From the NCBI GenBank assembly GCA_964057225.1, contig OZ059900.1, positions 10,850,001-10,914,000 on the forward strand: DNA of 64,000 nt. Reading direction: 5' to 3'. The notes under the pieces were generated by a model. It searched no databases. It was not told the origin of the DNA and was given only the letters and a program-made list of their open reading frames with translations. Below are positions 2,241-61,236 of the stretch, one piece after another; position 1 is the first letter of the stretch; every line of letters begins with the position of its first letter. Source of the stretch: Auanema rhodensis (Eukaryota > Animalia > Nematoda). A program made the position numbers and the translations under genes.

Positions 2241-2390
2241 TCGTTCTTATCGAATTAACCTTCGATATGTGTTCCATTAAATTTTGGTATTTCATATCGT
2301 TCTTATCGAATTAACTTTCGATATGTGTTCCATTAAATTTTGGTATTTCATATCGTTCTTATCGAATTAACCTTCGATATGTGTTCCATT
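2241..2390. repeat. 56-bp tandem repeat, ~2.7 copies (Maverick subterminal region)
   Basis: tcgttcttatcgaattaac(c/t)ttcgatatgtgttccattaaattttggtatttcata starting at 2241, 2297 and 2353. Confidence 0.9.
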
Positions 2391-2760
2391 GAAATACCCA
2401 TAACAAGTACGGTGAACAAAACGATATACATGCAAAAATTTTATTGATCTTTAAAAATACAAATAAAATATTACAAACACAATACAATAAAAAATAAACA
2501 AAATAAGTAAACAAACATCATTAATAAATTTAATAAATAAATAAAATTTAAAAAACAAATTTACATATTTAAATATTTAAATATTTAAAATTTATAATTT
2601 TTATTTTTACTTAATATATTTAAAAATAATTAAAACTATATACATACATTTGAATAAACAAATTTAAAATTTGATTTAAAAAAAAAAAAAAAAAAAAAAA
2701 ATCATGCTTTAAATCATGATTTTTAAATTTAAAATAGGAGAATCCATGAACCATGATCCC

Positions 2761-2870
2761 AAAATATGATTTTAACAGCTGACGCTCAAAAATATGTTTT
2801 TGACAGCTGACGCGCCCCAAAAGTATGTTTTTAGCAGCTGACGCCCCCAAAAGTATGTTTTTGACAGCTG
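2761..2870. repeat. ~28-30-bp tandem subterminal repeat x4 containing CAGCTG (probable Maverick TIR)
   Basis: aaaa(g)tatg(a/t)tttt..cagctgacgc repeated four times just inside the CTCTCTACT terminus. Confidence 0.8.
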
Positions 2871-2910
2871 TTTGGGGGCGTGGTTAGTAAATTTTGCACG
2901 GCTCTCTACT

Positions 2911-5900
2911 AGCAATACACCAACCACACAAAAATCACCTACGCCCGCACTTTCTTCAACCACACCCGCAGTAAGCTCATCCCCACCTCTACAAAACTCA
3001 CCTTCATCCATTGATCATTCTACATCTGGGCATTCTCTATCTCCGTCTCTTCCATCGCAAACTAATCAAGCAAATACTTTTGTTGCAGAAAACAAGAGAA
3101 TTAACCCAAGAATGGACCCAATGGACGAAGGCGCACCACTTACGCAAACCTCGGGAAGGGCACCTGTTCCAACACCTACAATCATCCCTCAACCAGCAGC
3201 GATTCCGTCCGCCATACGCGATATAAAAGCTCCACGCTACGATGGAAAAACACCATTCAACCGCTATCTACTATACCTAGATGAACACTTCAACGCTACA
3301 AGAACAACTATGCCCGAACGTCTTCAAAGCATACAATTATTGCTAGAAGATGATCGAGCAAGAGAAGCGTACAGAAAACTCACAACCGAAGATAAGCGAC
3401 TCGGATGGGACCATGTCAAGAAGCGACTCTCAGAAATGATCACACCGAAAAAACAGAGAGAACGAGCAATGCACCGCCTACATGGCTTGAAACAGTTACC
3501 AACGGAATCGGTACAAAGCTTTGCAACAAGATGTTCTAACGAAGCCTACTCGGCTATGGACATGAACAACGAAAGTGAGCTTAACATGCTCCGATCCACC
3601 TTCACTTGGGGACTAAGACCCGAAATAAGCGAACATGTTAGCCGTCTAGACCCACCAAACTTTGAGGAAGCTTACGAAATGGCCTTACGAGAAGAACTCT
3701 TTATACAAAATAGACCAACATCGTTTGTCAACAATATAGAGAAGTCGTTCAACAACCTCAACATTCGAGACTCGAAGGACAACAATCAATACCAGAGAAA
3801 CAAATCTAAGGATTTCAAAGGAACCAAACCGATGTATAATGGCAATGGCAAACCACACAACCGATATCCGGACAGATACAACAACCAATATCGGCCTCAT
3901 CAACACCAATACAGGAACCATAACTCACGATTCTCTCAAAATAAGGGATCAAGACAAAACTACTTCGACAGATCACGGAACAGAAGCCAAGAAAGACCAT
4001 ACTATCGAAACCGCGACCAAAACTATAGCGGACACAACAACCGGCGACAATCAAATAATCACGAACAATACCCCTCTCAATACAATCGAAGCCAATACAA
4101 CAATTATAGAAGTCGCCCGCGCAGCACCTCCAATGGACCGGAACGGTATAGAGAACGCACACAGAGCCCAGGAGTACGTTTTCAAGTCAACAACGTCACG
4201 GAAAACGAAGTACCGAACAACAAAAGAAAATCAACACCATTCCTACCCCTCTTTATCACAATTATCGCACTCATTATAAACACATGCAGTGCAGAAACAA
4301 CGTACCAGTTATGCACAGGAAACAGAGGAGGAATATATGTCGAGCCGCCATCGCCAACAGCTTGCCGATCCATCGCACCAACTAATAACCATATCCAGAA
4401 GACTACAGCAGAATTGTTCATCCAAAACCTACAACCAAAAGAGTGGGAAGCATGGAAATGTGCAATTGAAACTTACCAACTCTGCATTCACGACGTTTTC
4501 TTCATCAGAGAAACTAATGTCTCACTAGCAAAAGTTTCACCAACAACACTGCAAGAATGTTCGTCAGCTATTAAAGAAAGAATATTCAACGGTACCAACC
4601 TTCAAAGAGAAGCACCAGGACTCTATGGAACTCCATTCCCACATACAACTATTACTAATGGTATATGGAAACAGGAATGCGAACAACGTACCAGATTCAT
4701 AGCTGAACGAGGACACATGACCAGCCTACAAGACAATACAGTACTCTCAGATATATTCATAAACGACAACGGATGCACCAGTGACAAAGGACAATGCCTA
4801 ACCAACAACGCTCTCATCATATGGACCCCACCATCAGAAAAACATAGTTGCTCGTACACTTCATTAGGCTCTCACGAAGTTTTTATATCAGAAGACACCA
4901 TATTGATTCCCGGAATTCAAAGTGCTTTTATTCTAAACAATAAAACACCGGAAAAAGAAGCCTCCTCATGCTTACAAAAAGATATATTTACTACAAATAG
5001 TGGAACTCTAATCTCCTTCAACTCAACCTCAAGCTTAGGACGATCAAGAAGACACGCAATCACGGAATACCCTAAAGGATTCTTGACAGTTCATCAATAC
5101 CCCTCGCTAAGATATTCAGCCAGCAAAACCGGAACTATTCTACTATATACAACCTATATTCAACGGAAAAGACTTGACATCCATTACAATCTCAATAACA
5201 TAACAAATATGTTACCTAAGTATATCGCAATCTTCAAATACCTAGGTATAAATTTTGATGTTATTAAAAATCGTCTTATATGGCACAAATATGAAGACGT
5301 CAACATAGCCATTCTACACGCCCTAGGAGAAGCAGAAATAAGAGAAGCAACAAAAATCGCGATCGATAATCTATCGTATAAGGAACTTACGCAAAAACTT
5401 AGCAAACGGATCACAATTAAGGATTTTAAGAAAATACTACCAACCAAAACAGGAGACTACTATGAAATCGCGAAAGAAATTGCTTACTCACTTGCGGAAA
5501 TACCTACTACATTAGCTACAGGAGAAACAACACCATCTTTAGAAGAATACTTATATCAACTTATGCCACCAAGAAAACCAAAACTCACCAAGACACGAAA
5601 CGATTTAGAACTGTACGAACAACTAGCACAAGCAAAAATTATCCTGAACGCAATAAATAATCCGAAGAAGCTACATTCAAAAGAAGAATACGAAGCAGAA
5701 ATGAAGAAATGGATCAAATATGAAAAAGAACTGAACTTACCACCATTACAACTGCCAAACTACACAGTTATCTTCGATGGCGACGATATATTCTACGGCT
5801 TCCGGAAAAGAAATCCTACAAATTATAGCATTACACAAGAGGATAGTGAAAAATTTTATAATCATTATCTACCCCTTATCAGTACTCCCGGAACACGACC

Positions 5901-8900
5901 TTTTGCAACCACAATTAGAAGCACTTCGACCCCCCTACAAACTACTACTACAACCACTACCACGACCCCTAAGCCTACAACCATAAGGAACGTCATCACT
6001 TCGACAATCACACCCAAAACACATATATCCGAAACAACTAGACCCAAACCAACAATACCCACGTCTTCATCAACTACTACTACTACTACCACTACTACTA
6101 CTACTACTTCTACTACTGCTAGACCCAGATCAACAACAACCACAACACCTACAACAACCACAACTATATTCACCACTCATCGACCAACACAATCATTCTC
6201 CACCCCCCAATCTACATTCAATATTACTACAAACCCAATCACAATCACCTCAAGCCAGGAATACAATAGGAAAGAATCACTCACCAAGTCACCGCCTCCA
6301 AGAACTACAAAAAGATCTATCACTACCACTCGCAGCACACCTGAAGAAATATCATCACATATTGGTAAGAAAGCTCACGTAGACTACCTTAAAGCTAAGA
6401 ACGATATCGTCCAAAAATGGAATGAACATCTTCATCAACAAGAAACGCAATCTCATCTACAATATGCCACTACCAATCTGGAAGATGATATCATACGTAC
6501 GTTCACAACAAACAGAAACAACATCTGCCACGTACAAAATAAACAACTACTTACCTGGTGGGCTATTCTTCAAATAAATCCTACTATAGGGATGCGTACA
6601 ATGCTACGACGACAGGATATATCTGCAAGATTCATAAATGATAAACTAATTTATGTAATGCCATGCACACCAATTCAAATTACAAAAACATACCGTGATC
6701 ACAAAGTCAACAGCACGTGTTTTCTGGAAACCCCAGTCGAAACGGAACATCACGGCCAACTGTTCATCTTACCAGGTACAAGAGACCTCACACCGATGGC
6801 ACATGCCATACCATGCGGATTCACAATCAAGGATCCCTGGAAAGAAAACGATCAATGGACTAATAATAACCAATCAATAAATGTAACATCACCAGCATAC
6901 ATCGACGAGTTAGGATCAATCAACCTAGAACATATCAAGTTTAATGGAAGCAACATTTTCAACAATCTAACAGAATCAACGTTTCCTATGGCACTAGCAA
7001 TATCATATGGATCCAGCTTAGCAACGCTACAGGCTACTTTACCAGGAAGAATAAAACCTGTAATCAAACAAAGATTAATTCCTAACATGAACCCTGTTAC
7101 CCTAACAGCAGGAGCAGCCAGCAGCTTACTACTCAGCTACGAACATACAAAAGAAGCTATAACTTGGAAAATGTTTGACTTTCTGTCACCAATATGGGGA
7201 AAGATTCAAACCTGGACACTACGCGTACTTGCTATCATTGGATCAATCATCATAACAATTGGCATAATCACACTCGCCACCTGGATAATAAAAATATACG
7301 CATGTAGCTCAAGGATACCCATCAACAATGTCAAATGGGAAGCAGAATACTTACAACCACTATCAACTGAGAACACAAGAACAGAAACATCTCATCCTTC
7401 TCCGTCCGCTCCATACGTCGACAACCATCACAACAGCTGTCAACTCACATTGTATGATCCTTCAGCACCAATTCCTGAACACATTTATGAAGCTTATTTC
7501 CCTACAAGCATGAAGAAAGAAAACATAAACTACGTAGGAGGATCACAATTACCGTTTGTCCCGATTTCAATCCACAATCACATCTTTAAGGCACTATGGG
7601 ACACGGGAGCATCAGCATCATACATGCGAGAATCCACCTTCAAACAACTGCCCGCGGCAACGATGGTACTAAAACAAACAACAGCGATAGTCGCGAATAA
7701 ATCTAAATTCTCATTTATGGGATACACAAGGATCCTCATAACAATAGGAACAACAGAAACAGAACACAAATTTTATGTAGCAGAAGATAACTACTGTCCA
7801 GCACCAGTGTTACTTGGAATAGACTTCATGGAAGCATTACATCAACAAGGAATTTACACCTCACTTCGACCGCTGGATAAAACAATTGTTATCGGCACAA
7901 CACATGTTCCACTAGCACGAGAAACATCTCCGTGGGAACACCAGACCACGAAAGCTTATGTGGTTAGCTTAGAAAACAAAACGCTAAGACCAGGAGAAAC
8001 AAGAACGCTCACGCTAGAAGTACACGATCCAGAAAGCTATGAACAGGCGTTTCTAGATTGTAAGAAACCAGGCAACAAACTCTCTTTCACGCCTACTATA
8101 TTTACGCCAACTGGATACGGAGTACAAATTTACGCGACGAATATATGCAAACAGCCACTCGAAATTCAAATGAATCAAGAAATAGGGATAGCAGAAGCGA
8201 TACCAAAGGACAACCAAGAAAAATACGAAGGCCAATACATACCTCCGGAAGCTCGATGGGAAGAGCAACTGCCATATTTCCCAGACAATTTCATCAATGA
8301 GCTTGACCTTTCAGAAGCCTGCTTCTCACAAATCGAACAACAGCAACTGAAAGAAATAATTTTACTACATAAACAAGCGTTTCTCAATGAAGATAGAAAT
8401 ATCGGACTCTTCCTAGGACCAATTGAACACTCCATTCCAATCATGCCAGGAAAAACACCATCATTCAAAATTACTTATCGTATACCACTCTCCCAACAAG
8501 AAGAAGTGGAGAAACAAATAGAAGAAATGCTACAACAAAGAATCATTGAACCATCAAACTCAATGACAACTAGTCCAGTAATTTTGGTGAAGAAGAAAGA
8601 CAAAACTTACAGATTTGTAACGGACTTTCGAGCTCTGAATGCAATAACTCAGAAACAAGTATATGTCATATCAAACATACAGGACATCCTAGATTTGGCC
8701 GCTGGAGCAAGGATCTTCAGCAACTTTGATTTAGTATCTGGATTTTTCCAAATACCTCTTAAGAAAGAAGATCGTCATCTTACAGCTTTCACAACAACAA
8801 GTGGAACTTATCAATATTGTCGAATGCCGATGGGATTATGTGGATCACCCCATACTTTTCAAAACGCAGTACGATACCTGCAATCAATGGTTAAATGCAA

Positions 8901-11724
8901 GCTATTCGTATATCTAGATGATTTACTGTTAATCTCTGAATCTACGACAGCACATTTAAAAGATATTGAAGAAGTTTTGGAAGCAGTAACTCAAATAGGA
9001 TTCAAAATAAAACTGAAGAAATGCGCATTCGCAAGAAAGGAAGTAAAATTTCTAGGATACATAGTTGGACAAGAAGGAATTAAACCGGACCCACATAAAA
9101 TTAAGGCAATACAAGATTATCCCCAACCAAAATCAACAACAGGAGTAAGAGCTTTCATGGGAGTAGTAAACTACTTCAGAAGGTTCATAAAGAACGCTGC
9201 AGGAATAGCAACACCACTCTACAACCTCACTCAGAAAGACACTCCGTTCAAATGGACAGAAGAAGAAGAAATTGCTTTTAATACTTTGAAGAAAACATTG
9301 ACTCAAGCACCTGTGTTACAAGCACCAATCCCGAAGCGACCATATGTTATTGAAAGTGATGGAAGTATGATAGCAGTTGGCGCTGTACTACTTCAAGCGA
9401 AAGACGATCAAGAACCATTACACCCCATAGCTTTTGCTAGTCGGAAACTCAACAAAGCTGAAAGGAATTATCCACCAATAGAAGTAGAAGCATTAGCTCT
9501 TACATTCGCCGTTAAACAATTTCGCACCTACATACTAGGAACAGCAACCAAAATTATCACGGATCATAGACCACTTACTAGTTTAATGACTAGAAAAGAT
9601 TTAATAGGTCGTTTAGCAAAATTTCAAATTGTTTTACAAGAATACGATATTGAAATTATCTACAGACCAGGAAAATTAAATAGTGTATGTGACGCATTAT
9701 CACGATATTTTGAAGATGAAATCAACGAAGCAAAACCACCAGCAAAGAAGAAAAACGAAAGAAAAACGACGGAAGATACTATTCATCAGATAAACACCTT
9801 CACGATAGCAGATATTCGATCAGTTCAGAATCAATCAAATTGGATAAAAGAAACTATGGATAAAATAAAGAATAATACAGCTGGACGACAACTGACGGAC
9901 AGATATATTGTGTACAACGATGTACTATACTCAAAACCAAAAAGAAGCCTACAAGTACCACGAACAATTTTACCACGAGAAGAGCACATAATTAATCCAA
10001 TTATGAAGAAATTTCATGAAGATCCGACACTCGGAGCTCATCTAGGAATAAACAAAACAATGGACTCAATATCAAGACGATTTACATGGACTGGAATGCA
10101 AGAAGACATTACAAACTACATCAACAGATGTCTTGCTTGTGCGAAAAGAAAGAACAACCCTCACGAAGCAACGGTGGAACCAATGAAAAATTTTCCAACA
10201 TCAACAAAACCATGGCAAAGAGTACACATGGATATACTCGGACCATTACCTAGGACAGAACAAGAAAACAGATATGTTCTTTCAATTCAAGATTCTTTTT
10301 CAAAATGGATAATCGCAATTCCGCTAATCAGACAAACATCAGAAGAAATTATATCAGCTATCGAAAAATATCTCTTCTATGTTTTTGGACCACCTGTCAC
10401 TATCATCACAGACAATGGATCTAATTTTATTTCAAACGATTTCACCACTATGTGCAGTAATTTTGGAACTACACACCACACTACTATGCCGTATTACAAA
10501 AACGCTAACGGACAAGTAGAAAGATTACATCGGACGATCGAAGAAGCATTAACAGCCTACGTTAATGACGAACAAAACGATTGGGATAAGATACTTCCGA
10601 AGATTATTTTTACACTCAACAGATTACCAAACGCCACCACTAAAATATCACCATACGAATGTTTGTTTGGACAAGTAGCACGTCTACCCATTGACAAAAA
10701 CTTGGAAACACCGGAAGAACAAAATACCACGGATCAGCTCAAAAACTTAAGAGATATTCAAGAAAAAGTCAAGGAAAAGATTGCCACCAATGAAGAAAGA
10801 ATGAAGCAGAAATATGATCAAGCACATAGGACAAAAGAAAGAATATTAGATATAGGAGATCGAGTATTTGTACAAAGAGCGAACCCAAGCAACAAATTAC
10901 AAATACGAAGAGATGGACCTTACCGGATAGTGACAATTGAAGGAAACAACATCAGCATAACGGACCAAGATGGAAATATTATAAAAGCTCACAAAAATAA
11001 CATACGTTATTTTCCACCAGACGATAATCTTATATCAACAAGAAATAATGAAGAAGAGGAAGAAGAGGACCAAGACATAGCAAACGAAGAAGAAGAAGAA
11101 GAAGCAAGTTGGAATAATCTGGATGAATGGGAACAAACCAATAATACGGAAAATAACAACAACTGTTACCCAACAGGCAGTCCAGATACTCTCGCGCAAC
11201 TGTTACCTATCACAGGGAATAACAGAGGAGTAAACGAAGAAGAAATTGAACATAATTCAGAAACACCTGACGACCTTGCTACAGCAAGAAGAATAACAAA
11301 TTCTAATATACAATTAGAAGATGAATCAACAACAATCGACAGAATTCAAGAGGACCTCAGACAGCTGACACCTTTCTCTCAAGAAGAAGGTTCTAATCAA
11401 AACGATATAGAAGATAATAACGCAAAAACATACGAAAAACTACGAGATCAATTCAAGAATGAAAACAGAAAGGAGCTATTTGAGGACAGAAACAAAAACT
11501 CACCAGCAATCAAAAATTGGAACACTACACTTGCCGCAGCACTAGGAATAGGAAATGAAAACTCACGCCCGTATCATGTTAAACTACAACCCAAAAGAAA
11601 AACACAAGACGAAGAAATCAGAAGTAATGGAGAATTGGAACTACATGGAAAAGCGGATCAAAGCAAAAAGCAGCAGAATAAATCTCCAACGCAAAACAAA
11701 GGAGAACAAGTACGAAACTTTTAA
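2911..11724 (+). CDS. Single Gag-Env-Pol polyprotein (~2940 aa; first ATG in window at 3112; true start probably beyond the Maverick)
   Basis: Uninterrupted frame with capsid-like Gag, signal peptide, gB-like ectodomain, TM, DTG protease, YLDD RT, RNase H and HHCC/DD35E integrase. Confidence 0.93.
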   Translation, partial: SNTPTTQKSPTPALSSTTPAVSSSPPLQNSPSSIDHSTSGHSLSPSLPSQTNQANTFVAENKRINPRMDPMDEGAPLTQTSGRAPVPTPTIIPQPAAIPSAIRDIKAPRYDGKTPFNRYLLYLDEHFNATRTTMPERLQSIQLLLEDDRAREAYRKLTTEDKRLGWDHVKKRLSEMITPKKQRERAMHRLHGLKQLPTESVQSFATRCSNEAYSAMDMNNESELNMLRSTFTWGLRPEISEHVSRLDPPNFEEAYEMALREELFIQNRPTSFVNNIEKSFNNLNIRDSKDNNQYQRNKSKDFKGTKPMYNGNGKPHNRYPDRYNNQYRPHQHQYRNHNSRFSQNKGSRQNYFDRSRNRSQERPYYRNRDQNYSGHNNRRQSNNHEQYPSQYNRSQYNNYRSRPRSTSNGPERYRERTQSPGVRFQVNNVTENEVPNNKRKSTPFLPLFITIIALIINTCSAETTYQLCTGNRGGIYVEPPSPTACRSIAPTNNHIQKTTAELFIQNLQPKEWEAWKCAIETYQLCIHDVFFIRETNVSLAKVSPTTLQECSSAIKERIFNGTNLQREAPGLYGTPFPHTTITNGIWKQECEQRTRFIAERGHMTSLQDNTVLSDIFINDNGCTSDKGQCLTNNALIIWTPPSEKHSCSYTSLGSHEVFISEDTILIPGIQSAFILNNKTPEKEASSCLQKDIFTTNSGTLISFNSTSSLGRSRRHAITEYPKGFLTVHQYPSLRYSASKTGTILLYTTYIQRKRLDIHYNLNNITNMLPKYIAIFKYLGINFDVIKNRLIWHKYEDVNIAILHALGEAEIREATKIAIDNLSYKELTQKLSKRITIKDFKKILPTKTGDYYEIAKEIAYSLAEIPTTLATGETTPSLEEYLYQLMPPRKPKLTKTRNDLELYEQLAQAKIILNAINNPKKLHSKEEYEAEMKKWIKYEKELNLPPLQLPNYTVIFDGDDIFYGFRKRNPTNYSITQEDSEKFYNHYLPLISTPGTRPFATTIRSTSTPLQTTTTTTTTTPKPTTIRNVITSTITPKTHISETTRPKPTIPTSSSTTTTTTTTTTTTSTTARPRSTTTTTPTTTTTIFTTHRPTQSFSTPQSTFNITTNPITITSSQEYNRKESLTKSPPPRTTKRSITTTRSTPEEISSHIGKKAHVDYLKAKNDIVQKWNEHLHQQETQSHLQYATTNLEDDIIRTFTTNRNNICHVQNKQLLTWWAILQINPTIGMRTMLRRQDISARFINDKLIYVMPCTPIQITKTYRDHKVNSTCFLETPVETEHHGQLFILPGTRDLTPMAHAIPCGFTIKDPWKENDQWTNNNQSINVTSPAYIDELGSINLEHIKFNGSNIFNNLTESTFPMALAISYGSSLATLQATLPGRIKPVIKQRLIPNMNPVTLTAGAASSLLLSYEHTKEAITWKMFDFLSPIWGKIQTWTLRVLAIIGSIIITIGIITLATWIIKIYACSSRIPINNVKWEAEYLQPLSTENTRTETSHPSPSAPYVDNHHNSCQLTLYDPSAPIPEHIYEAYFPTSMKKENINYVGGSQLPFVPISIHNHIFKALWDTGASASYMRESTFKQLPAATMVLKQTTAIVANKSKFSFMGYTRILITIGTTETEHKFYVAEDNYCPAPVLLGIDFMEALHQQGIYTSLRPLDKTIVIGTTHVPLARETSPWEHQTTKAYVVSLENKTLRPGETRTLTLEVHDPESYEQAFLDCKKPGNKLSFTPTIFTPTGYGVQIYATNICKQPLEIQMNQEIGIAEAIPKDNQEKYEGQYIPPEARWEEQLPYFPDNFINELDLSEACFSQIEQQQLKEIILLHKQAFLNEDRNIGLFLGPIEHSIPIMPGKTPSFKITYRIPLSQQEEVEKQIEEMLQQRIIEPSNSMTTSPVILVKKKDKTYRFVTDFRALNAITQKQVYVISNIQDILDLAAGARIFSNFDLVSGFFQIPLKKEDRHLTAFTTTSGTYQYCRMPMGLCGSPHTFQNAVRYLQSMVKCKLFVYLDDLLLISESTTAHLKDIEEVLEAVTQIGFKIKLKKCAFARKEVKFLGYIVGQEGIKPDPHKIKAIQDYPQPKSTTGVRAFMGVVNYFRRFIKNAAGIATPLYNLTQKDTPFKWTEEEEIAFNTLKKTLTQAPVLQAPIPKRPYVIESDGSMIAVGAVLLQAKDDQEPLHPIAFASRKLNKAERNYPPIEVEALALTFAVKQFRTYILGTATKIITDHRPLTSLMTRKDLIGRLAKFQIVLQEYDIEIIYRPGKLNSVCDALSRYFEDEINEAKPPAKKKNERKTTEDTIHQINTFTIADIRSVQNQSNWIKETMDKIKNNTAGRQLTDRYIVYNDVLYSKPKRSLQVPRTILPREEHIINPIMKKFHEDPTLGAHLGINKTMDSISRRFTWTGMQEDITNYINRCLACAKRKNNPHEATVEPMKNFPTSTKPWQRVHMDILGPLPRTEQENRYVLSIQDSFSKWIIAIPLIRQTSEEIISAIEKYLFYVFGPPVTIITDNGSNFISNDFTTMCSNFGTTHHTTMPYYKNANGQVERLHRTIEEALTAYVNDEQNDWDKILPKIIFTLNRLPNATTKISPYECLFGQVARLPIDKNLETPEEQNTTDQLKNLRDIQEKVKEKIATNEERMKQKYDQAHRTKERILDIGDRVFVQRANPSNKLQIRRDGPYRIVTIEGNNISITDQDGNIIKAHKNNIRYFPPDDNLISTRNNEEEEEEDQDIANEEEEEEASWNNLDEWEQTNNTENNNNCYPTGSPDTLAQLLPITGNNRGVNEEEIEHNSETPDDLATARRITNSNIQLEDESTTIDRIQEDLRQLTPFSQEEGSNQNDIEDNNAKTYEKLRDQFKNENRKELFEDRNKNSPAIKNWNTTLAAALGIGNENSRPYHVKLQPKRKTQDEEIRSNGELELHGKADQSKKQQNKSPTQNKGEQVRNF
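3112..4197 (+). other. gag: Gag domain (capsid-like, then N/Q/R/Y-rich basic region, no CCHC knuckle)
   Basis: PRYDGK..F..YL, LLL...AREAY, W..VKKRL, L..LKQ...ESVQSFATR, F.WGLRPEI...V....P.NFEEAYEMALREE are typical Ty3/gypsy capsid motifs. Confidence 0.8.
4222..7290 (+). other. env: Envelope glycoprotein domain, herpesvirus gB-like (class III fusogen)
   Basis: KRK+hydrophobic signal ending CSA (4222-4293); Cys-rich ectodomain with NxS/T sequons; RSRR furin site 5041-5052; Thr-rich mucin ~5880-6300; CHVQNKQLLTWWAILQINPT..ISARFINDKLIYVMPCTPI (from 6526) resembles the HSV gB CELQN..LW....LNP...VSARMLGDV.AVSTCVPV segment; TM 7225-7290. Confidence 0.8.
7537..7850 (+). other. Aspartic protease domain
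   Basis: ALWDTGASAS (DTG at 7600-7608) and C-terminal VLLGIDFM. Confidence 0.92.
8440..9100 (+). other. Reverse transcriptase domain
   Basis: SPVILVKKKD..YRFVTDFRALN, FDLVSGFFQI, TAF, YCRMPMGL, YLDD (8911-8922), KC.F....VKFLGY. Confidence 0.97.
9340..9715 (+). other. RNase H domain
   Basis: IESDGS..AVGAVLLQ, PIAFASRKL...ERNY...EVEALA, TDHRPL, YRPGKLN..CDALSR. Confidence 0.95.
9790..11010 (+). other. Integrase domain (HHCC, DD35E, GPY/F)
   Basis: H10015/H10039/C10129/C10138; D10231, D10411, E10519 (35 residues between D and E); GPY at 10915-10923. Confidence 0.95.
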
Positions 11725-11927: not shown

Positions 11928-12572
11928 ATGACCTCCTCTCTCGCCAACGTCACACTCTCTACATTCCTCGCAACTCCAACACCACTGGTCCCTCTAGCGA
12001 CCACTATTGAACAAGAATGGATAGAGGTAGAAAACCTTCGTGAAGGTCTTCTACCTATCAACTGCATGAAGCCCAACTTAGGACCAATAATAAGCCTCCA
12101 AACGAGCAAATTGGAAAAGAAGACACAGCACATCCTATTTATGATGGAACTATTGGAGGAGAAAACCAAAAACTATAAGGAAAACGATCTGAAGGAGCTT
12201 CGCCAGCATCAAAAGAAATGGACAGAAGGATGTTCTCTCAGCCAGAAAGAGAACAGAATCCGACACATAATGCTGGGACAACCCGCCAGAACGCAGACCA
12301 CAGCTGACATCTACAAAGCAATGCCGACGTGGACAACACAGATGACACAACATGCTGTAAGAAATAGCGGAACCGAAGAAGAAGCATCGTGGATAGAGAT
12401 AGGGCAAGACCTATCAGTAGTAATCGAAAAACTACTGACAAAAAGGACTACCAACACGTCCGCATCAAAAAGTAAGGCAAAAGCAGTTAGCCAAACCATC
12501 AGAACAATGGAGCTGCTTGGACTAGCATCAATGACGGAAATGATCCAGGAAATTGACCAACTGGCGGATTAA
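11928..12572 (+). CDS. Orphan accessory ORF2 of the LTR element (214 aa from ATG), function unknown
   Basis: caaaATG start; intact 645-bp frame with codon composition like the polyprotein, between AT-rich non-coding segments upstream of the 3' LTR. Confidence 0.65.
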   Translation: MTSSLANVTLSTFLATPTPLVPLATTIEQEWIEVENLREGLLPINCMKPNLGPIISLQTSKLEKKTQHILFMMELLEEKTKNYKENDLKELRQHQKKWTEGCSLSQKENRIRHIMLGQPARTQTTADIYKAMPTWTTQMTQHAVRNSGTEEEASWIEIGQDLSVVIEKLLTKRTTNTSASKSKAKAVSQTIRTMELLGLASMTEMIQEIDQLAD

Positions 12573-12763: not shown

Positions 12764-13180
12764 TGTTACATACATATCTCAAAGGAAAGCAGCTGACCAT
12801 GGCAGCTGCTATTATTAAACTAATGCAGATAGTTTTTAAGCAATTCTGAGAATATTCTAGATGCACTTTTTATAAACTTTGTAACAATTTGTGTAAACTG
12901 AGTAGGAGTTGTATGGATATATAAACCTGAGTCCTCAAGACTCAGGCATCTCATTATCTCATTATCTTACTTTCTCTTTATCTTCTTTATATTCTCTTTC
13001 TTAACTCTAGCTCTAATCTTTGTATAATTATATTATAATGCGAACAATAAACCTTTATATATTTGATCTCTTGTTTCTTATTTCACCTTACATTACACAC
13101 ATATATTTAAAATCATACTCATCTTCTCATAGTCTGTTTGGATCTCTCAACTTGGAACCATTGAGGATCTAAATGGAACG
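12764..13180 (+). repeat. 3' LTR (417 bp, TGTTACAT...ATGGAACG)
   Basis: Near-identical to the inverted copy at 62819-63237 and the partial copy at 61237-61519; preceded by short G-rich tract GTTGGGGCA. Confidence 0.93.
12918..12946 (+). promoter_or_regulatory. LTR TATA box followed directly by an 8-bp-stem hairpin
   Basis: TATATAAA 12918-12925, then CCTGAGTC-ctcaa-GACTCAGG; AATAAA at 13046-13051; TATA and hairpin conserved in all three LTR copies. Confidence 0.55.
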
Positions 13181-13272
13181 CGTCAACAAATGAATAATAT
13201 AGTCTTCCTATTAAATCAGGTGGCTTGGCTTTATTTAGAAAATGATAGTTTGAATGGAGCATCCGTTGTCAT

Positions 13273-13283
13273 AAAAAACAAAA
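13273..13283 (-). terminator. Pol III oligo-T terminator (TTTTGTTTTTT), present after every tRNA copy
   Basis: Minus-strand TTAGTTTTGTTTTTT immediately 3' of the tRNA. Confidence 0.85.
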
Positions 13284-13287
13284 CTAA

Positions 13288-13369
13288 CGATCAGGATGAG
13301 ATTCGAACTGACGCGGGGAAACCCCAATGGATTAGCAGTCCATCGCCTTAACCACTCCGCCTCCTGATC
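13288..13369 (-). tRNA. tRNA-Ser(GCT), first array copy (variant: U8A, C12G and a T-stem change; possibly inactive)
   Basis: Same cloverleaf as the consensus but with A-box and T-stem substitutions (ctccgcctcc, gaactgacg on + strand). Confidence 0.75.
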
Positions 13370-13535
13370 ACAGGGTTTTTCCAAGAATACTCTTACTTAA
13401 ACAAAGAAATTATTGTGACAACAAATATCGTCAACAAACAAATAAGAAAGTCTTCCTGTTAAATCAGGTGGCTTGGCTTAATTTAGAAAATGATAGTTTG
13501 AATGGAGCATCCGTTGTCATAAAAAACAAAACTAA

Positions 13536-13617
13536 CGATCAGGATGAGATTCGAACTCACGCGGGGAAACCCCAATGGATTAGCAGTCCATCGCCTTAAC
13601 CACTCGGCCACCTGATC
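13536..13617 (-). tRNA. tRNA-Ser(GCT), consensus copy (repeats every 248 bp)
   Basis: GATCAGGTGGCCGAGTGGTTAAGGCGATGGACTGCTAATCCATTGGGGTTTCCCCGCGTGAGTTCGAATCTCATCCTGATCG: 7-bp acceptor stem, A box, GCT anticodon, long variable arm GGGG/CCCC, GTTCGAA B box, G discriminator. Confidence 0.97.
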
Positions 13618-16600
13618 ACAGGGTTTTTCCAAGAATACTCTTACTTAAACAAAGAAATTATTGTGACAACAAATATCGTCAGCAAACAAATAAGAAAGTC
13701 TTCCTATTAAATCAGGTGGCTTGGCTTTATTTAGAAAATGATAGTTTGAATGGAGCATCCGTTGTCATAAAAAACAAAACTAACGATCAGGATGAGATTC
13801 GAACTCACGCGGGGAAACCCCAATGGATTAGCAGTCCATCGCCTTAACCACTCGGCCACCTGATCACAGGGTTTTTCCAAGAATACTCTTACATAAACAA
13901 AGAAATTATTGTGAGAATAAATAACGTCAACAAATGAATAATATAGTCTTCCTATTAAATCAGGTGGCTTGGCTTTATATAGAAAATGATAGTTTGAATG
14001 GAGCATCCGTTGTCATAAAAAACAAAACTAACGATCAGGATGAGATTCGAACTCACGCGGGGAAACCCCAATGGATTAGCAGTCCATCGCCTTAACCACT
14101 CGGCCACCTGATCACAGGGTTTTTCCAAGAATACTCTTACATAAACAAAGAAATTATTGTGAGAATAAATAACGTCAACAAATGAATAATATAGTCTTCC
14201 TATTAAATCAGGTGGCTTGGCTTTATTTAGAAAATGATAGTTTGAATGGAGCATCCGTTGTCATAAAAAACAAAACTAACGATCAGGATGAGATTCGAAA
14301 TCACGCGGGGAAACCCCAATGGATTAGCAGTCCATCGCCTTAACCACTCCGCCTCCTGATCACAGGGTTTTTCCAAGAATACTCTTACTTAAACAAAGAA
14401 ATTATTGTGACAACAAATATCGTCAACAAACAAATAAGAAAGTCTTCCTGTTAAATCAGGTGGCTTGGCTTAATTTAGAAAATGATAGTTTGAATGGAGC
14501 ATCCGTTATCATAAAAAACAAAACTAACGATCAGGATGAGATTCGAACTCACGCGGGGAAACCCCAATGGATTAGCAGTCCATCGCCTTAACCACTCCGC
14601 CTCCTGATCACAGGGTTTTTCCAAGAATACTCTTACTTAAACAAAGAAATTATTGTGACAACAAATATCGTCAACAAACAAATAAGAAAGTCTTCCTGTT
14701 AAATCAGGTGGCTTGGCTTAATATAGAAAATGATAGTTTGAATGGAGCATCCGTTGTCATAAAAAACAAAACTAACGATCAGGATGAGATTCGAACTCAC
14801 GCGGGGAAACCCCAATGGATTAGCAGTCCATCGCCTTAACCACTCGGCCACCTGATCACAGGGTTTTTCCAAGAATACTCTTACTTAAACAAAGAAATTA
14901 TTGTGACAACAAATATCGTCAGCAAACAAATAAGAAAGTCTTCCTATTAAATCAGGTGGCTTGGCTTTATTTAGAAAATGATAGTTTGAATGGAGCATCC
15001 GTTGTCATAAAAAACAAAACTAACGATCAGGATGAGATTCGAACTGACGCGGGGAAACCCCAATGGATTAGCAGTCCATCGCCTTAACCACTCGGCCACC
15101 TGATCACAGGGTTTTTCCAAGAATACTCTTACTTAAACAAAGAAATTATTGTGACAACAAATATCGTCAGCAAACAAATAAGAAAGTCTTCCTATTAAAT
15201 CAGGTGGCTTGGCTTTATTTAGAAAATGATAGTTTGAATGGAGCATCCGTTGTCATAAAAAACAAAACTAACGATCAGGATGAGATTCGAACTCACGCGG
15301 GGAAACCCCAATGGATTAGCAGTCCATCGCCTTAACCACTCGGCCACCTGATCACAGGGTTTTTCCAAGAATACTCTTACTTAAACAAAGAAATTATTGT
15401 GACAACAAATATCGTCAGCAAACAAATAAGAAAGTCTTCCTATTAAATCAGATGGCTTGGCTTTATTTAGAAAATGATAGTTTGAATGGAGCATCCGTTG
15501 TCATAAAAAACAAAACTAACGATCAGGATGAGATTCGAACTCACGCGGGGAAACCCCAATGGATTAGCAGTCCATCGCCTTAACCACTCGGCCACCTGAT
15601 CACAGGGTTTTTCCAAGAATACTCTTACTTAAACAAAGAAATTATTGTGACAACAAATATCGTCAGCAAACAAATAAGAAAGTCTTCCTATTAAATCAGG
15701 TGGCTTGGCTTTATTTAGAAAATGATAGTTTGAATGGAGCATCCGTTGTCATAAAAAACAAAACTAACGATCAGGATGAGATTCGAACTGACGCGGGGAA
15801 ACCCCAATGGATTAGCAGTCCATCGCCTTAACCACTCCGCCTCCTGATCACAGGGTTTTTCCAAGAATACTCTTACTTAAACAAAGAAATTATTGTGACA
15901 ACAAATATCGTCAACAAACAAATAAGAAAGTCTTCCTGTTAAATCAGGTGGCTTGTCTTAATTTAGAAAATGATAGTTTGAATGGAGCATCCGTTGTCAT
16001 AAAAAACAAAACTAACGATCAGGATGAGATTCGAACTCACGCGGGGAAACCCCAATGGATTAGCAGTCCATCGCCTTAACCACTCGGCCACCTGATCACA
16101 GGGTTTTTCCAAGAATACTCTTACTTAAACAAAGAAATTATTGTGACAACAAATATCGTCAGCAAACAAATAAGAAAGTCTTCCTATTAAATCAGGTGGC
16201 TTGGCTTTATTTAGAAAATGATAGTTTGAATGGAGCATCCGTTGTCATAAAAAACAAAACTAACGATCAGGATGAGATTCGAACTCACGCGGGGAAACCC
16301 CAATGGATTAGCAGTCCATCGCCTTAACCACTCGGCCACCTGATCACAGGGTTTTTCCAAGAATACTCTTACTTAAACAAAGAAATTATTGTGACAACAA
16401 ATATCGTCAGCAAACAAATAAGAAAGTCTTCCTATTAAATCAGGTGGCTTGGCTTTATTTCGAAAATGATAGTTTGAATGGAGCATCCGTTGTCATAAAA
16501 AACAAAACTAACGATCAGGATGAGATTCGAACTCACGCGGGGAAACCCCAATGAATTAGCAGTCCATCGCCTTAACCACTCGGCCACCTGATCACAGGGT

Positions 16601-19600
16601 TTTTCCAAGAATACTCTTACATAAACAAAGAAATTATTGTGAGAATAAATAACGTCAACAAATGAATAATATAGTCTTCCTATTAAATCAGGTGGCTTGG
16701 CTTTATATAGAAAATGATAGTTTGAATGGAGCATCCGTTGTCATAAAAAACAAAACTAACGATCAGGATGAGATTCGAACTCACGCGGGGAAACCCCAAT
16801 GGATTAGCAGTCCATCGCCTTAACCACTCGGCCACCTGATCACAGGGTTTTTCCAAGAATACTCTTACATAAACAAAGAAATTATTGTGAGAATAAATAA
16901 CGTCAACAAATGAATAATATAGTCTTCCTATTAAATCAGGTGGCTTGGCTTTATTTAGAAAATGATAGTTTGAATGGAGCATCCGTTGTCATAAAAAACA
17001 AAACTAACGATCAGGATGAGATTCGAACTCACGCGGGGAAACCCCAATGGATTAGCAGTCCATCGCCTTAACCACTCCGCCTCCTGATCACAGGGTTTTT
17101 CCAAGAATACTCTTACTTAAACAAAGAAATTATTGTGACAACAAATATCGTCAGCAAACAAATAAGAAAGTCTTCCTATTAAATCAGGTGGCTTGGCTTT
17201 ATTTAGAAAATGATAGTTTGAATGGAGCATCCGTTGTCATAAAAAACAAAACTAACGATCAGGATGAGATTCGAACTCACGCGGGGAAACCCCAATGGAT
17301 TAGCAGTCCATCGCCTTAACCACTCGGCCACCTGATCACAGGGTTTTTCCAAGAATACTCTTACTTAAACAAAGAAATTATTGTGACAACAAATATCGTC
17401 AGCAAACAAATAAGAAAGTCTTCCTATTAAATCAGGTGGCTTGGCTTTATTTAGAAAATGATAGTTTGAATGGAGCATCCGTTGTCATAAAAAACAAAAC
17501 TAACGATCAGGATGAGATTCGAACTCACGCGGGGAAACCCCAATGGATTAGCAGTCCATCGCCTTAACCACTCGGCCACCTGATCACAGGGTTTTTCCAA
17601 GAATACTCTTACTTAAACAAAGAAATTATTGTGACAACAAATATCGTCAGCAAACAAATAAGAAAGTCTTCCTATTAAATCAGATGGCTTGGCTTTATTT
17701 AGAAAATGATAGTTTGAATGGAGCATCCGTTGTCATAAAAAACAAAACTAACGATCAGGATGAGATTCGAACTCACGCGGGGAAACCCCAATGGATTAGC
17801 AGTCCATCGCCTTAACCACTCGGCCACCTGATCACAGGGTTTTTCCAAGAATACTCTTACTTAAACAAAGAAATTATTGTGACAACAAATATCGTCAGCA
17901 AACAAATAAGAAAGTCTTCCTATTAAATCAGGTGGCTTGGCTTTATTTAGAAAATGATAGTTTGAATGGAGCATCCGTTGTCATAAAAAACAAAACTAAC
18001 GATCAGGATGAGATTCGAACTCACGCGGGGAAACCCCAATGGATTAGCAGTCCATCGCCTTAACCACTCGGCCACCTGATCACAGGGTTTTTCCAAGAAT
18101 ACTCTTACTTAAACAAAGAAATTATTGTGACAACAAATATCGTCAGCAAACAAATAAGAAAGTCTTCCTATTAAATCAGGTGGCTTGGCTTTATTTAGAA
18201 AATGATAGTTTGAATGGAGCATCCGTTGTCATAAAAAACAAAACTAACGATCAGGATGAGATTCGAACTCACGCGGGGAAACCCCAATGGATTAGCAGTC
18301 CATCGCCTTAACCACTCGGCCACCTGATCACAGGGTTTTTCCAAGAATACTCTTACTTAAACAAAGAAATTATTGTGACAACAAATATCGTCAGCAAACA
18401 AATAAGAAAGTCTTCCTATTAAATCAGGTGGCTTGGCTTTATTTCGAAAATGATAGTTTGAATGGAGCATCCGTTGTCATAAAAAACAAAACTAACGATC
18501 AGGATGAGATTCGAACTCACGCGGGGAAACCCCAATGGATTAGCAGTCCATCGCCTTAACCACTCCGCCTCCTGATCACAGGGTTTTTCCAAGAATACTC
18601 TTACTTAAACAAAGAAATTATTGTGACAACAAATATCGTCAACAAACAAATAAGAAAGTCTTCCTGTTAAATCAGGTGGCTTGGCTTAATTTAGAAAATG
18701 ATAGTTTGAATGGAGCATCCGTTGTCATAAAAAACAAAACTAACGATCAGGATGAGATTCGAACTCACGCGGGGAAACCCCAATGGATTAGCAGTCCATC
18801 GCCTTAACCACTCGGCCACCTGATCACAGGGTTTTTCCAAGAATACTCTTACTTAAACAAAGAAATTATTGTGACAACAAATATCGTCAGCAAACAAATA
18901 AGAAAGTCTTCCTATTAAATCAGGTGGCTTGGCTTTATTTAGAAAATGATAGTTTGAATGGAGCATCCGTTGTCATAAAAAACAAAACTAACGATCACGA
19001 TGAGATTCGAACTCACGCGGGGAAACCCCAATGGATTAGCAGTCCATCGCCTTAACCACTCGGCCACCTGATCACAGGGTTTTTTCAAGAATACTCTTAC
19101 TTAAACAAAGAAATTATTGTGACAACAAATATCGTCAGCAAACAAATAAGAAAGTCTTCCTATTAAATCAGGTGGCTTGGCTTTATTTAGAAAATGATAG
19201 TTTGAATGGAGCATCCGTTGTCATAAAAAACAAAACTAACGATCAGGATGAGATTCGAACTCACGCGGGGAAACCCCAATGGATTAGCAGTCCATCGCCT
19301 TAACCACTCGGCCACCTGATCACAGGGTTTTTCCAAGAATACTCTTACTTAAACAAAGAAATTATTGTGACAACAAATATCGTCAGCAAACAAATAAGAA
19401 AGTCTTCCTATTAAATCAGATGGCTTGGCTTTATTTAGAAAATGATAGTTTGAATGGAGCATCCGTTGTCATAAAAAACAAAACTAACGATCAGGATGAG
19501 ATTCGAACTCACGCGGGGAAACCCCAATGGATTAGCAGTCCATCGCCTTAACCACTCGGCCACCTGATCACAGGGTTTTTCCAAGAATACTCTTACTTAA

Positions 19601-22600
19601 ACAAAGAAATTATTGTGACAACAAATATCGTCAGCAAACAAATAAGAAAGTCTTCCTATTAAATCAGGTGGCTTGGCTTTATTTAGAAAATGATAGTTTG
19701 AATGGAGCATCCGTTGTCATAAAAAACAAAACTAACGATCAGGATGAGATTCGAACTCACGCGGGGAAACCCCAATGGATTAGCAGTCCATCGCCTTAAC
19801 CACTCGGCCACCTGATCACAGGGTTTTTCCAAGAATACTCTTACTTAAACAAAGAAATTATTGTGACAACAAATATCGTCAGCAAACAAATAAGAAAGTC
19901 TTCCTATTAAATCAGGTGGCTTGGCTTTATTTCGAAAATGATAGTTTGAATGGAGCATCCGTTGTCATAAAAAACAAAACTAACGATCAGGATGAGATTC
20001 GAACTCACGCGGGGAAACCCCAATGAATTAGCAGTCCATCGCCTTAACCACTCGGCCACCTGATCACAGGGTTTTTCCAAGAATACTCTTACATAAACAA
20101 AGAAATTATTGTGAGAATAAATAACGTCAACAAATGAATAATATAGTCTTCCTATTAAATCAGGTGGCTTGGCTTTATATAGAAAATGATAGTTTGAATG
20201 GAGCATCCGTTGTCATAAAAAACAAAACTAACGATCAGGATGAGATTCGAACTCACGCGGGGAAACCCCAATGGATTAGCAGTCCATCGCCTTAACCACT
20301 CGGCCACCTGATCACAGGGTTTTTCCAAGAATACTCTTACATAAACAAAGAAATTATTGTGAGAATAAATAACGTCAACAAATGAATAATATAGTCTTCC
20401 TATTAAATCAGGTGGCTTGGCTTTATTTAGAAAATGATAGTTTGAATGGAGCATCCGTTGTCATAAAAAACAAAACTAACGATCAGGATGAGATTCGAAC
20501 TCACGCGGGGAAACCCCAATGGATTAGCAGTCCATCGCCTTAACCACTCCGCCTCCTGATCACAGGGTTTTTCCAAGAATACTCTTACTTAAACAAAGAA
20601 ATTATTGTGACAACAAATATCGTCAGCAAACAAATAAGAAAGTCTTCCTATTAAATCAGGTGGCTTGGCTTTATTTAGAAAATGATAGTTTGAATGGAGC
20701 ATCCGTTGTCATAAAAAACAAAACTAACGATCAGGATGAGATTCGAACTCACGCGGGGAAACCCCAATGGATTAGCAGTCCATCGCCTTAACCACTCGGC
20801 CACCTGATCACAGGGTTTTTCCAAGAATACTCTTACTTAAACAAAGAAATTATTGTGACAACAAATATCGTCAGCAAACAAATAAGAAAGTCTTCCTATT
20901 AAATCAGGTGGCTTGGCTTTATTTAGAAAATGATAGTTTGAATGGAGCATCCGTTGTCATAAAAAACAAAACTAACGATCAGGATGAGATTCGAACTCAC
21001 GCGGGGAAACCCCAATGGATTAGCAGTCCATCGCCTTAACCACTCGGCCACCTGATCACAGGGTTTTTCCAAGAATACTCTTACTTAAACAAAGAAATTA
21101 TTGTGACAACAAATATCGTCAGCAAACAAATAAGAAAGTCTTCCTATTAAATCAGATGGCTTGGCTTTATTTAGAAAATGATAGTTTGAATGGAGCATCC
21201 GTTGTCATAAAAAACAAAACTAACGATCAGGATGAGATTCGAACTCACGCGGGGAAACCCCAATGGATTAGCAGTCCATCGCCTTAACCACTCGGCCACC
21301 TGATCACAGGGTTTTTCCAAGAATACTCTTACTTAAACAAAGAAATTATTGTGACAACAAATATCGTCAGCAAACAAATAAGAAAGTCTTCCTATTAAAT
21401 CAGGTGGCTTGGCTTTATTTAGAAAATGATAGTTTGAATGGAGCATCCGTTGTCATAAAAAACAAAACTAACGATCAGGATGAGATTCGAACTCACGCGG
21501 GGAAACCCCAATGGATTAGCAGTCCATCGCCTTAACCACTCGGCCACCTGATCACAGGGTTTTTCCAAGAATACTCTTACTTAAACAAAGAAATTATTGT
21601 GACAACAAATATCGTCAGCAAACAAATAAGAAAGTCTTCCTATTAAATCAGGTGGCTTGGCTTTATTTAGAAAATGATAGTTTGAATGGAGCATCCGTTG
21701 TCATAAAAAACAAAACTAACGATCAGGATGAGATTCGAACTCACGCGGGGAAACCCCAATGGATTAGCAGTCCATCGCCTTAACCACTCGGCCACCTGAT
21801 CACAGGGTTTTTCCAAGAATACTCTTACTTAAACAAAGAAATTATTGTGACAACAAATATCGTCAGCAAACAAATAAGAAAGTCTTCCTATTAAATCAGG
21901 TGGCTTGGCTTTATTTCGAAAATGATAGTTTGAATGGAGCATCCGTTGTCATAAAAAACAAAACTAACGATCAGGATGAGATTCGAACTCACGCGGGGAA
22001 ACCCCAATGGATTAGCAGTCCATCGCCTTAACCACTCCGCCTCCTGATCACAGGGTTTTTCCAAGAATACTCTTACTTAAACAAAGAAATTATTGTGACA
22101 ACAAATATCGTCAACAAACAAATAAGAAAGTCTTCCTGTTAAATCAGGTGGCTTGGCTTAATTTAGAAAATGATAGTTTGAATGGAGCATCCGTTGTCAT
22201 AAAAAACAAAACTAACGATCAGGATGAGATTCGAACTCACGCGGGGAAACCCCAATGGATTAGCAGTCCATCGCCTTAACCACTCGGCCACCTGATCACA
22301 GGGTTTTTCCAAGAATACTCTTACTTAAACAAAGAAATTATTGTGACAACAAATATCGTCAGCAAACAAATAAGAAAGTCTTCCTATTAAATCAGGTGGC
22401 TTGGCTTTATTTAGAAAATGATAGTTTGAATGGAGCATCCGTTGTCATAAAAAACAAAACTAACGATCACGATGAGATTCGAACTCACGCGGGGAAACCC
22501 CAATGGATTAGCAGTCCATCGCCTTAACCACTCGGCCACCTGATCACAGGGTTTTTTCAAGAATACTCTTACTTAAACAAAGAAATTATTGTGACAACAA

Positions 22601-61078: not shown

Positions 61079-61160
61079 CGATCAGGATGAGATTCGAACT
61101 CACGCGGGGAAACCCCAATGGATTAGCAGTCCATCGCCTTAACCACTCGGCCACCTGATC
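61079..61160 (-). tRNA. tRNA-Ser(GCT), last array copy
   Basis: Identical to the consensus copy. Confidence 0.97.
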
Positions 61161-61236
61161 ACAGGGTTTTTCCAAGAATACTCTTACTTAAACAAAGAAA
61201 TTATTGTGAGAATAAATAACGTCAACAAATGAATAA

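What the first reader, a model, noticed from the sequence alone, without database searches (positions are those of the whole stretch)
2911..11724. Ty3/gypsy element with a gB-like envelope embedded between Gag and Pol in one polyprotein (Gag-Env-Pol)
Seen: one open frame with capsid, then a KRK+hydrophobic signal ending CSA, a ~980-aa Cys-rich glycoprotein, one TM helix, then PR-RT-RH-IN. There is no stop or frameshift. Known: retroviruses and errantiviruses put env 3' of pol, usually as a separate spliced ORF. Inference: membrane topology would do the sorting, as in flavi/alphavirus polyproteins. Gag stays cytosolic, the internal signal translocates Env, and the TM stop-transfer returns Pol to the cytosol as the Env tail. 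That predicts 1:1:1 stoichiometry and packaging of Pol via the envelope rather than via Gag-Pol. This is a candidate undescribed enveloped retroelement architecture.
Basis: partly seen in the sequence, partly recalled or inferred. Interest (0 to 1): 0.92.

Follow-up and report, generated by a model that had tools for sequence, protein, structure and literature searches.

The report
Nematode retroelement with built-in envelope protein
This jumping gene, likely from a roundworm, encodes one long protein in which a predicted herpesvirus-type membrane-fusion protein sits between the capsid and the enzymes; that layout is already published, but a short motif on both sides of the envelope part likely marks where the element's own protease cuts the pieces apart.

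Summary
Observation real, novelty claim wrong. One stop-free frame encodes capsid, internal signal, a class III (gB-like) envelope, one TM helix, then PR-RT-RH-IN. GAG-ENV-POL Ty3/gypsy elements with gB-type env are published for nematodes, bryozoans and flatworms (PMC13524379, citing Sacco 2022), and this scan met the layout before in two other genomes. 17 other proteins among 167 examined hold all domains in this order; the closest is from the nematode Auanema (63% over Pol). The copy is cut at 2911 and lacks its 5' LTR. Additions made here: (1) a [VI]N-x-[VIL] motif marks the capsid end and the PR start and also both cytosolic flanks of Env (24 of 43 and 18 of 44 held-out homologs against 1.6 and 2.8 in shuffles), likely the protease site; (2) three LTR junctions lie 59-76 bp upstream of tRNA-Ser genes of a 193-copy array, same orientation; (3) spliced antisense RNA crosses env; (4) the furin loop holds an unassigned helical domain and a Thr-rich stalk. 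Verdict: new member of a known kind, with testable mechanistic leads.

The parts
2760..2910 (.). High-copy repeat (unidentified) joined to the broken 5' end of the element; not part of it
   Evidence: Summed contig depth 9322 against about 430 over the ORF in run X4, 728 against about 170 in X2; loose ends at 2911 in 4 of 4 runs
2911..11724 (+). Single Gag-Env-Pol reading frame, 2937 codons, 5'-truncated copy
2911..4221 (+). Gag: capsid (Pfam aa 147-236, nt 3349-3618) and an R/N/Q/S/Y-rich tail without a CCHC knuckle
4186..4197 (+). VNNV motif 17 residues before the signal helix; likely protease site that frees Gag from its membrane anchor. The same motif type occurs at aa 273, 1471, 1539 and, as INTF, 2294
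   Evidence: inferred from position; no cleavage data
4222..4293 (+). Internal signal sequence: KRK, hydrophobic core, CSA
   Evidence: hydropathy 1.93 over 19 aa; like segment in 52 of 56 gag-env homologs; no dedicated signal predictor was available
4294..7203 (+). Env ectodomain, class III fusion protein: beta-rich N part (aa 464-704), furin site RSRR (nt 5041-5052), insert, long central helix and C part (aa 1178-1374); 14 N-glycosylation sequons
5053..6440 (+). About 470-aa insert behind the furin site: a folded all-helical domain of about 210 aa with no assigned fold, a Thr/Ser-rich stalk (80% S/T in the best 40-aa window) and a dibasic TTKR/S site shared with P0002
7204..7308 (+). Single transmembrane helix (predicted stop-transfer)
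7309..7539 (+). Predicted cytosolic linker of about 80 aa with INNV at its start and INYV at its end
7540..10980 (+). Pol: protease (DTG, nt 7600), RT (YLDD, nt 8911), RNase H, integrase (HHCC, D-D-E); catalytic motifs present; followed by an acidic tail to 11721
11928..12572 (+). Extra 214-codon ORF between pol and the 3' LTR; no homolog or family found
12764..13180 (+). 3' LTR (LTR A, 417 bp, TG...CG), preceded by a short G run; joined to the tRNA array 59 bp upstream of a tRNA start position of the repeat unit
13181..61236 (-). Tandem array of 193 tRNA-Ser(GCT) genes, 248-bp unit
61237..62525 (+). Second, internally deleted copy: 283 bp of LTR (LTR B) joined to a PR-RT piece 98.2% identical to 7806-8811 (14 synonymous, 3 non-synonymous codon changes)
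62520..63237 (-). Third fragment: full LTR C (62819-63237), tRNA-Gln-type primer binding site (62801-62818) and about 280 bp of leader
   Evidence: PBS matches 11 of 12 letters of the tRNA-Gln end listed in supplementary file 1 of PMC13524379
4429..6284 (-). Four antisense GT-AG introns (4429-4476, 4549-4599, 4726-5740, 5816-6284) removed in contigs of RNA-like runs

Best explanation
This is a 5'-truncated copy of a Ty3/gypsy retroelement, likely of a nematode, whose single reading frame places a predicted class III fusion protein between Gag and Pol, and whose polyprotein is likely sorted by ER topology and likely cut by three proteases. Shown: one frame, domain order, two hydrophobic segments, homologs with the same layout, LTR family and PBS. 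Inferred steps: (1) the internal signal opens translocation and signal peptidase cuts after CSA, leaving Gag on the cytosolic face held by the signal helix; (2) Env folds in the lumen and furin cuts RSRR; (3) the TM helix stops transfer, so Pol is made as the cytosolic tail of Env; (4) the element's protease cuts at [VI]N-x-[VIL] sites, releasing Gag from its anchor (aa 426), trimming the Env tail (aa 1471), freeing protease (aa 1539) and separating capsid and integrase. Because all precursors start membrane-bound, particles would assemble at and bud through an internal membrane, and removal of Pol from the Env tail would act as the maturation switch for fusion. The element would then spread cell to cell within its host, probably soma to germline.
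For: Single frame and order. Class III fold: profile of 71 aligned env regions hits herpesvirus gB at E 1e-18 and chains named Glycoprotein at 1e-5; 54 of 71 members match PF24664 Monjiviricetes_fusion and 33 match PF00606; AlphaFold model (mean pLDDT 67, long helix 693-761) gives gB as all listed PDB hits, best E 5e-11, and nyamivirus, rhabdo-like and chu-like glycoproteins in BFVD, best E 3e-15. Conservation: 18 of 167 proteins, this one included, hold gag-envN-envC-PR-RT-RH-IN in one record; signal-like segment in 52 of 56, TM in 61 of 62, single in 53. Motif test on proteins not seen when the motif was chosen: before the signal 24 of 43 (shuffles 1.6, upstream control 4), after the TM 18 of 44 (2.8, lumenal control 4), after capsid 21 of 47 (2.7), before PR 11 of 45 (2.1), RH-IN 5 of 14 (1.5), and 0 of 12 before the signal of pol-env fusions. 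Env is constrained: 10 synonymous to 5 non-synonymous differences in 4294-6060, pN/pS 0.15, p 0.009 on a transition-only expectation. RT-RH tree joins it to Auanema P0002 (SH-aLRT 100) inside a clade with Caenorhabditis gag-env-pol proteins (100).
Against: No cleavage, topology, particle or fusion data exist here. The motif is absent from about half of the homologs at each junction, homologs are related, and 3 of 9 relaxed-motif hits in this protein lie away from junctions. 8 of 62 homologs carry a second hydrophobic patch before PR, which would put PR in the lumen if it crossed the membrane. Fold matches are local (TM-score 0.12-0.34, rmsd often above 20 A). No sense-strand transcript is shown: the only splices seen are antisense, and contigs give no strand. 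Homolog records are predicted gene models and some may hide introns. This copy lacks its 5' LTR and is presumably not mobile by itself. The tree is the quick one; the careful search did not finish.
Confidence: 0.75

Rival explanations
1. Same element, but the full polyprotein is a minor product: splicing or another decoding event makes Gag or Gag-Pol without Env and sets a Gag excess, so topology sorts only the Env-bearing fraction.
For: Most retroelements make far more Gag than Pol (general knowledge). RNA data here are contigs that drop rare forms; only 2760-6060 was laid, and 6 loose ends were not shown.
Against: No sense GT-AG joint and no listed loose end near 4.2 kb in the two RNA-like runs. 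No correctly phased slippery heptamer between gag and the signal among the eight patterns scanned. The 179-codon +1 frame at 3740-4279 has no Pfam match and is expected where codons for L/I/V/M are scarce. Single-ORF Gag-Pol-Env elements exist in nematodes (PMC9094657).
Confidence: 0.2
2. Protease acts early at the ER: Gag and Pol are released at once and assemble as ordinary cytosolic particles, Pol is packaged through RNA or Gag, and Env is picked up separately or serves another role (cell fusion, receptor interference).
For: Likely protease sites lie within 5-20 residues of both membrane anchors; Env trimers would bring protease monomers together (inference).
Against: It does not explain why the costly in-frame fusion is kept across many lineages (PMC13524379 reports several clades).
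Confidence: 0.3
3. One-off capture, decaying passenger or assembly chimera.
For: The copy is truncated and sits among rearranged fragments.
Against: Same order in 17 other proteins; ungapped independent contig across Gag-Env; excess of synonymous change in env.
Confidence: 0.02

Closest known systems
GAG-ENV-POL 'ancient errantiviruses' with HSV/gB-type ENV of Nematoda, Bryozoa and Platyhelminthes (Chary and Hayashi, eLife 2026, PMC13524379)
   Same: Order, Ty3/gypsy Pol, gB-type env with signal and TM. tRNA-Gln PBS is the commonest assigned type in the nematode rows seen (8 of 14 assigned, 30 of 36 rows seen). P0132, a gag-env-PR-RT hit to this env, carries a 10-residue motif of their Clat_errantivirus_2 exactly, and P0023 matches Clat_4 with 3 changes; 3 of 5 motifs found no match.
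   Different: In the sections read the paper speaks of ORFs; 'polyprotein', 'in-frame' and 'fused' do not occur in the preprint text, and no processing model or tRNA-linked insertion is given there. This env has one of the longest inserts (474 aa; range about 16-510).
Non-canonical nematode endogenous retroviruses (Sacco et al. 2022, J Gen Virol 103:001739)
   Same: Cited by PMC13524379 as nematode ERVs with env and pol flipped. Recalled from the abstract, not seen: a continuous gag-env-pro-pol ORF, env like Nyamiviridae glycoproteins, an extra small ORF. A nyavirus glycoprotein is rank 2, and an extra ORF is present.
   Different: Paper not held, so it is unknown whether it already proposes the topology, the protease motif or tRNA targeting.
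Atlas virus and nematode belpaoviruses (PMC9094657)
   Same: One intron-less polyprotein with Env in frame.
   Different: Order Gag-Pol-Env, class II phlebovirus-like Env, YVDN RT motif; here YLDD, class III, Env in the middle.
tRNA-gene-targeted retroelements: DGLT-A (13-33 bp upstream), TRE5 (about 50 bp upstream) (PMC5633606); yeast Ty3 and Ty1 (recalled)
   Same: LTR junctions clustered upstream of tRNA genes.
   Different: Distance 59-76 bp, animal host, enveloped element; only three junctions, all at one array.
Flavivirus and alphavirus structural polyproteins (recalled)
   Same: Works like them: capsid followed by an internal signal that anchors it until a viral protease cuts.
   Different: Unrelated proteins; not a member.

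Membership tests
Ty3/gypsy (Metaviridae) | Pol order PR-RT-RH-IN with YXDD | tested here: met
Ty3/gypsy (Metaviridae) | RT groups with Ty3/gypsy references | tested here: inconclusive
   Tree of 36 hits sets it far from two pol-env rows, but no named reference RT was included
Ty3/gypsy (Metaviridae) | LTRs at both ends and a PBS | tested here: inconclusive
   3' LTR present; 5' LTR and PBS lost in this copy; a sister fragment with a 94.7% identical LTR has a PBS
Nematode GAG-ENV-POL errantiviruses / non-canonical nematode ERVs | env between gag and pol | tested here: met
Nematode GAG-ENV-POL errantiviruses / non-canonical nematode ERVs | HSV/gB-type ectodomain between a signal and a TM helix | tested here: met
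Nematode GAG-ENV-POL errantiviruses / non-canonical nematode ERVs | Nematode host and Pol in a nematode clade | tested here: met
   Nearest named proteins are from Auanema and Caenorhabditis; host inferred from these, not identified
Nematode GAG-ENV-POL errantiviruses / non-canonical nematode ERVs | Cysteine-bridge class C1 or C2 | not tested
   Figure not readable; bridges not mapped
Class III fusion proteins | gB/G-like domains I-IV with long central helix | tested here: met
   local matches, low global TM-score
Class III fusion proteins | Trimer and membrane fusion | not testable with these tools
   969-aa ectodomain exceeds the complex size limit as a trimer; no assay
Belpaoviridae (Atlas, Cer13, Tas) | env after integrase; YVDN in nematode members | tested here: not met
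tRNA-gene-targeted retroelements | Most insertions at a fixed distance from tRNA genes genome-wide | tested here: inconclusive
   3 of 3 junctions with unit DNA at 59, 70, 76 bp, p about 0.004 if independent; no genome held

The most novel reading that the evidence does not exclude
An enveloped nematode retroelement that targets DNA 60-76 bp upstream of tRNA genes, and whose Env is a cassette bracketed by its own protease's sites, so that Gag and Pol are both born membrane-anchored and cutting Pol off the Env tail couples maturation to fusion.
Probability: 0.25. Interest if true: 0.65.

Novelty: new member of a known kind. Interest (0 to 1): 0.33.

Why it matters
The layout is known, so the discovery value is low. 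How such a polyprotein is processed seems open: my searches returned no paper on it, though Sacco 2022 could not be read. The motif result turns the question into exact, testable cut sites valid across the family. If tRNA-upstream insertion holds, it would add an animal, enveloped lineage to the independent origins of tRNA-gene targeting; two paper searches listed no nematode case.

Tried and rejected
No own genome is held, so copy number and other insertion sites could not be counted. Sacco 2022 not found; the Atlas capsid preprint had nothing relevant in the passages seen. No RNA holder is on record in the run list; RNA labels are guesses. Contig depth is no copy number. Single-sequence search of env against PDB sequences gave only E 0.8-0.9; the profile was needed. 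Six N-terminal motifs of stored homologs found nothing in supplementary file 2, which holds trimmed, gapped domains. Insert domain: no Pfam match, best VIA Z 5.0, no BFVD hit under E 0.001, no usable Atlas hit for homolog P0020; this shows neither novelty nor absence. Extra ORF: no homolog at E 0.1 among near-length proteins. Two-site excision of the insert as a family rule: rejected, a second RxKR/RxRR site occurs in only 5 of 36 long-linker proteins. Antisense spliced RNA as a coding message: longest stop-free stretch 85 aa over 3998-6540. Frameshift into the +1 frame at 3740-4279: no support. A 17-bp target duplication linking LTR A and LTR B: rejected as too long for this class (recalled 4-6 bp). 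No complex prediction was run. bioRxiv supplements and all figures were not seen.

Full report
Observation. The frame 2911-11724 reads 2937 residues without a stop and is the only ORF over 400 codons in the window. Pfam places capsid, a weak gB hit, protease, RT, RNase H and integrase in that order. Only two stretches pass a 19-residue hydropathy of 1.5: aa 443-461 behind KRK and aa 1432-1466. Between them lie 14 cysteines, 14 sequons and the only RxRR site of the protein (aa 711-714). Catalytic motifs of all four enzymes are present.

Boundaries. A 417-bp LTR follows an extra 214-codon ORF (12764-13180). Two more copies of this LTR, 92.6-94.7% alike, lie at 61237 and 62819-63237; the first is joined to a PR-RT piece 98.2% identical to the main ORF, the second has a tRNA-Gln-type PBS. 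No LTR precedes the ORF. Contigs from 4 of 4 runs laid on 2760-6060 break away from the window at 2911, and the DNA left of it is a high-depth repeat. So the window holds a copy broken at 2911, without 5' LTR, PBS and leader. One contig covers 2911-5816 without gaps. Of 26 listed differences, 3 lay in the repeat and were dropped; the other 23 split 6:2 synonymous to non-synonymous in gag and 10:5 in the first 1.8 kb of env (pN/pS 0.10 and 0.15).

Envelope identity. A search of 1.84 billion representatives gave 248 hits at E 0.001, of which 150 were listed. I aligned 70 chosen shorter hits with the query. The profile hits herpesvirus gB at E 1e-18; 54 of 71 members match PF24664 and 33 match PF00606. 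The model (pLDDT 67; 309 of 969 residues under 50, mostly the stalk) has a beta-rich N part, a 69-residue helix and a beta C part. Foldseek gives gB for every listed PDB row (best E 5e-11) and nyamivirus, rhabdo-like and chu-like glycoproteins. TM-scores are low, so the match is by domain. A 470-aa insert behind the furin site holds a helical domain shared with 3 other proteins and without an assigned fold, then a Thr-rich stalk.

Family. The best Pol hits among long proteins are nematode records, most of them with gB Pfam hits in the same protein; the nearest is from Auanema, 63% over 918 residues. Among all 167 proteins held, 18 (this one included) read gag-envN-envC-PR-RT-RH-IN, many more are partial versions, and 12 have env after integrase. 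A quick RT-RH tree of 36 rows joins the element to the Auanema protein inside a Caenorhabditis-rich clade. Chary and Hayashi (PMC13524379; seen: abstract, passages, first parts of sections 5, 6 and 9, sections 14 and 22, 30 of 36 nematode rows of supplementary file 1, six sequence rows of file 2; figures not seen) state that nematode, bryozoan and flatworm elements carry only gB-type env arranged GAG-ENV-POL, and credit Sacco 2022. That paper is not held; I recall its abstract describing a continuous gag-env-pro-pol ORF. Motifs link two of my hits to published elements. Earlier notes of this scan reached the same verdict on two other genomes; they came after my own reading and are not independent support.

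Mechanism. A signal-like segment precedes env in 52 of 56 gag-env proteins, and a TM helix lies between env and protease in 61 of 62, as the topology model needs. I noticed a [VI]N-x-[VIL] motif at domain borders in the first 19 proteins and tested it on the rest: before the signal 24 of 43 against 1.6 in shuffles and 4 in an upstream control (Fisher p 6e-6); after the TM 18 of 44 against 2.8 and 4 in a lumenal control (p 0.001); after capsid 21 of 47; before protease 11 of 45; between RNase H and integrase 5 of 14; 0 of 12 in pol-env fusions. The p-values ignore relatedness. Since the motif marks borders where a retroelement protease must cut, I infer it is that protease's site, and that Env is a cassette released on both cytosolic flanks. 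Gag would start anchored by the signal helix, like flavivirus capsid (recalled), and Pol as the Env tail; tail trimming could switch on fusion as with the MLV R peptide (recalled).

RNA. In the RNA-like runs all listed skips have minus-strand GT-AG ends: four introns across env, none listed in the DNA runs. This shows spliced antisense RNA in one study, apparently non-coding. No sense env-skipping joint was listed, but contigs lose rare forms and only 2760-6060 was laid, so that refutation test is inconclusive.

Insertion site. The element abuts 193 tandem tRNA-Ser genes. Its three LTR junctions map 59, 70 and 76 bp upstream of the tRNA start, same orientation; chance 0.015 for the span, 0.004 with orientation, if independent. 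They may not be: two belong to one rearranged block, and one has only 20 bp of unit DNA beside it. Known targeters sit at 13-33 and about 50 bp (PMC5633606, passages). This is a lead.

Verdict. Real and well supported, but a new member of a published class. The residual interest lies in the processing motif, the possible tRNA targeting and the antisense RNA. Interest 0.33.

Noticed in passing
window 13181-61236: 48-kb tandem array of 193 tRNA-Ser(GCT) genes, 248-bp unit, copies mostly 94-100% alike with recurring unit variants.
   Followed up: partly
window 13180, 61237, 63237: Three LTR junctions of one family lie 59, 76 and 70 bp upstream of the tRNA start in unit coordinates, all pointing away from the tRNA; possible tRNA-gene targeting.
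   Followed up: partly
window 4429-6284 (-): Spliced antisense RNA over env with four canonical introns of 48, 51, 1015 and 469 nt, seen in RNA-like runs of one study and not listed in the two DNA runs; apparently non-coding.
   Followed up: partly
window 13179-13180 and 62819-62820: Both full LTRs end in CG rather than the usual CA; unexplained.
   Followed up: no
window 61237-63260: Head-to-head junction of two deleted copies, with a 20-bp inverted piece of the tRNA unit and a diverged unit beyond.
   Followed up: partly
window 3-539: Open frame ending in a chromodomain (PF00385, E 1e-8); by recall it resembles the end of a Polinton-type integrase.
   Followed up: no
window 2760-2880 and 12720-12815: CAGCTG hexamers recur in the upstream repeat, before the 3' LTR and inside the LTR.
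   Followed up: no
P0004-P0012, P0025: Caenorhabditis-group homologs carry a conserved proline-rich hydrophobic patch just before the protease that this element lacks.
   Followed up: no
P0044, P0045, P0049, P0058 and 8 more: The same env family also occurs fused after integrase (12 of 167 proteins), without the protease-type motif before the signal.
   Followed up: partly
window 2233-2393: Three head-to-tail copies of a unit of about 56 bp.
   Followed up: no
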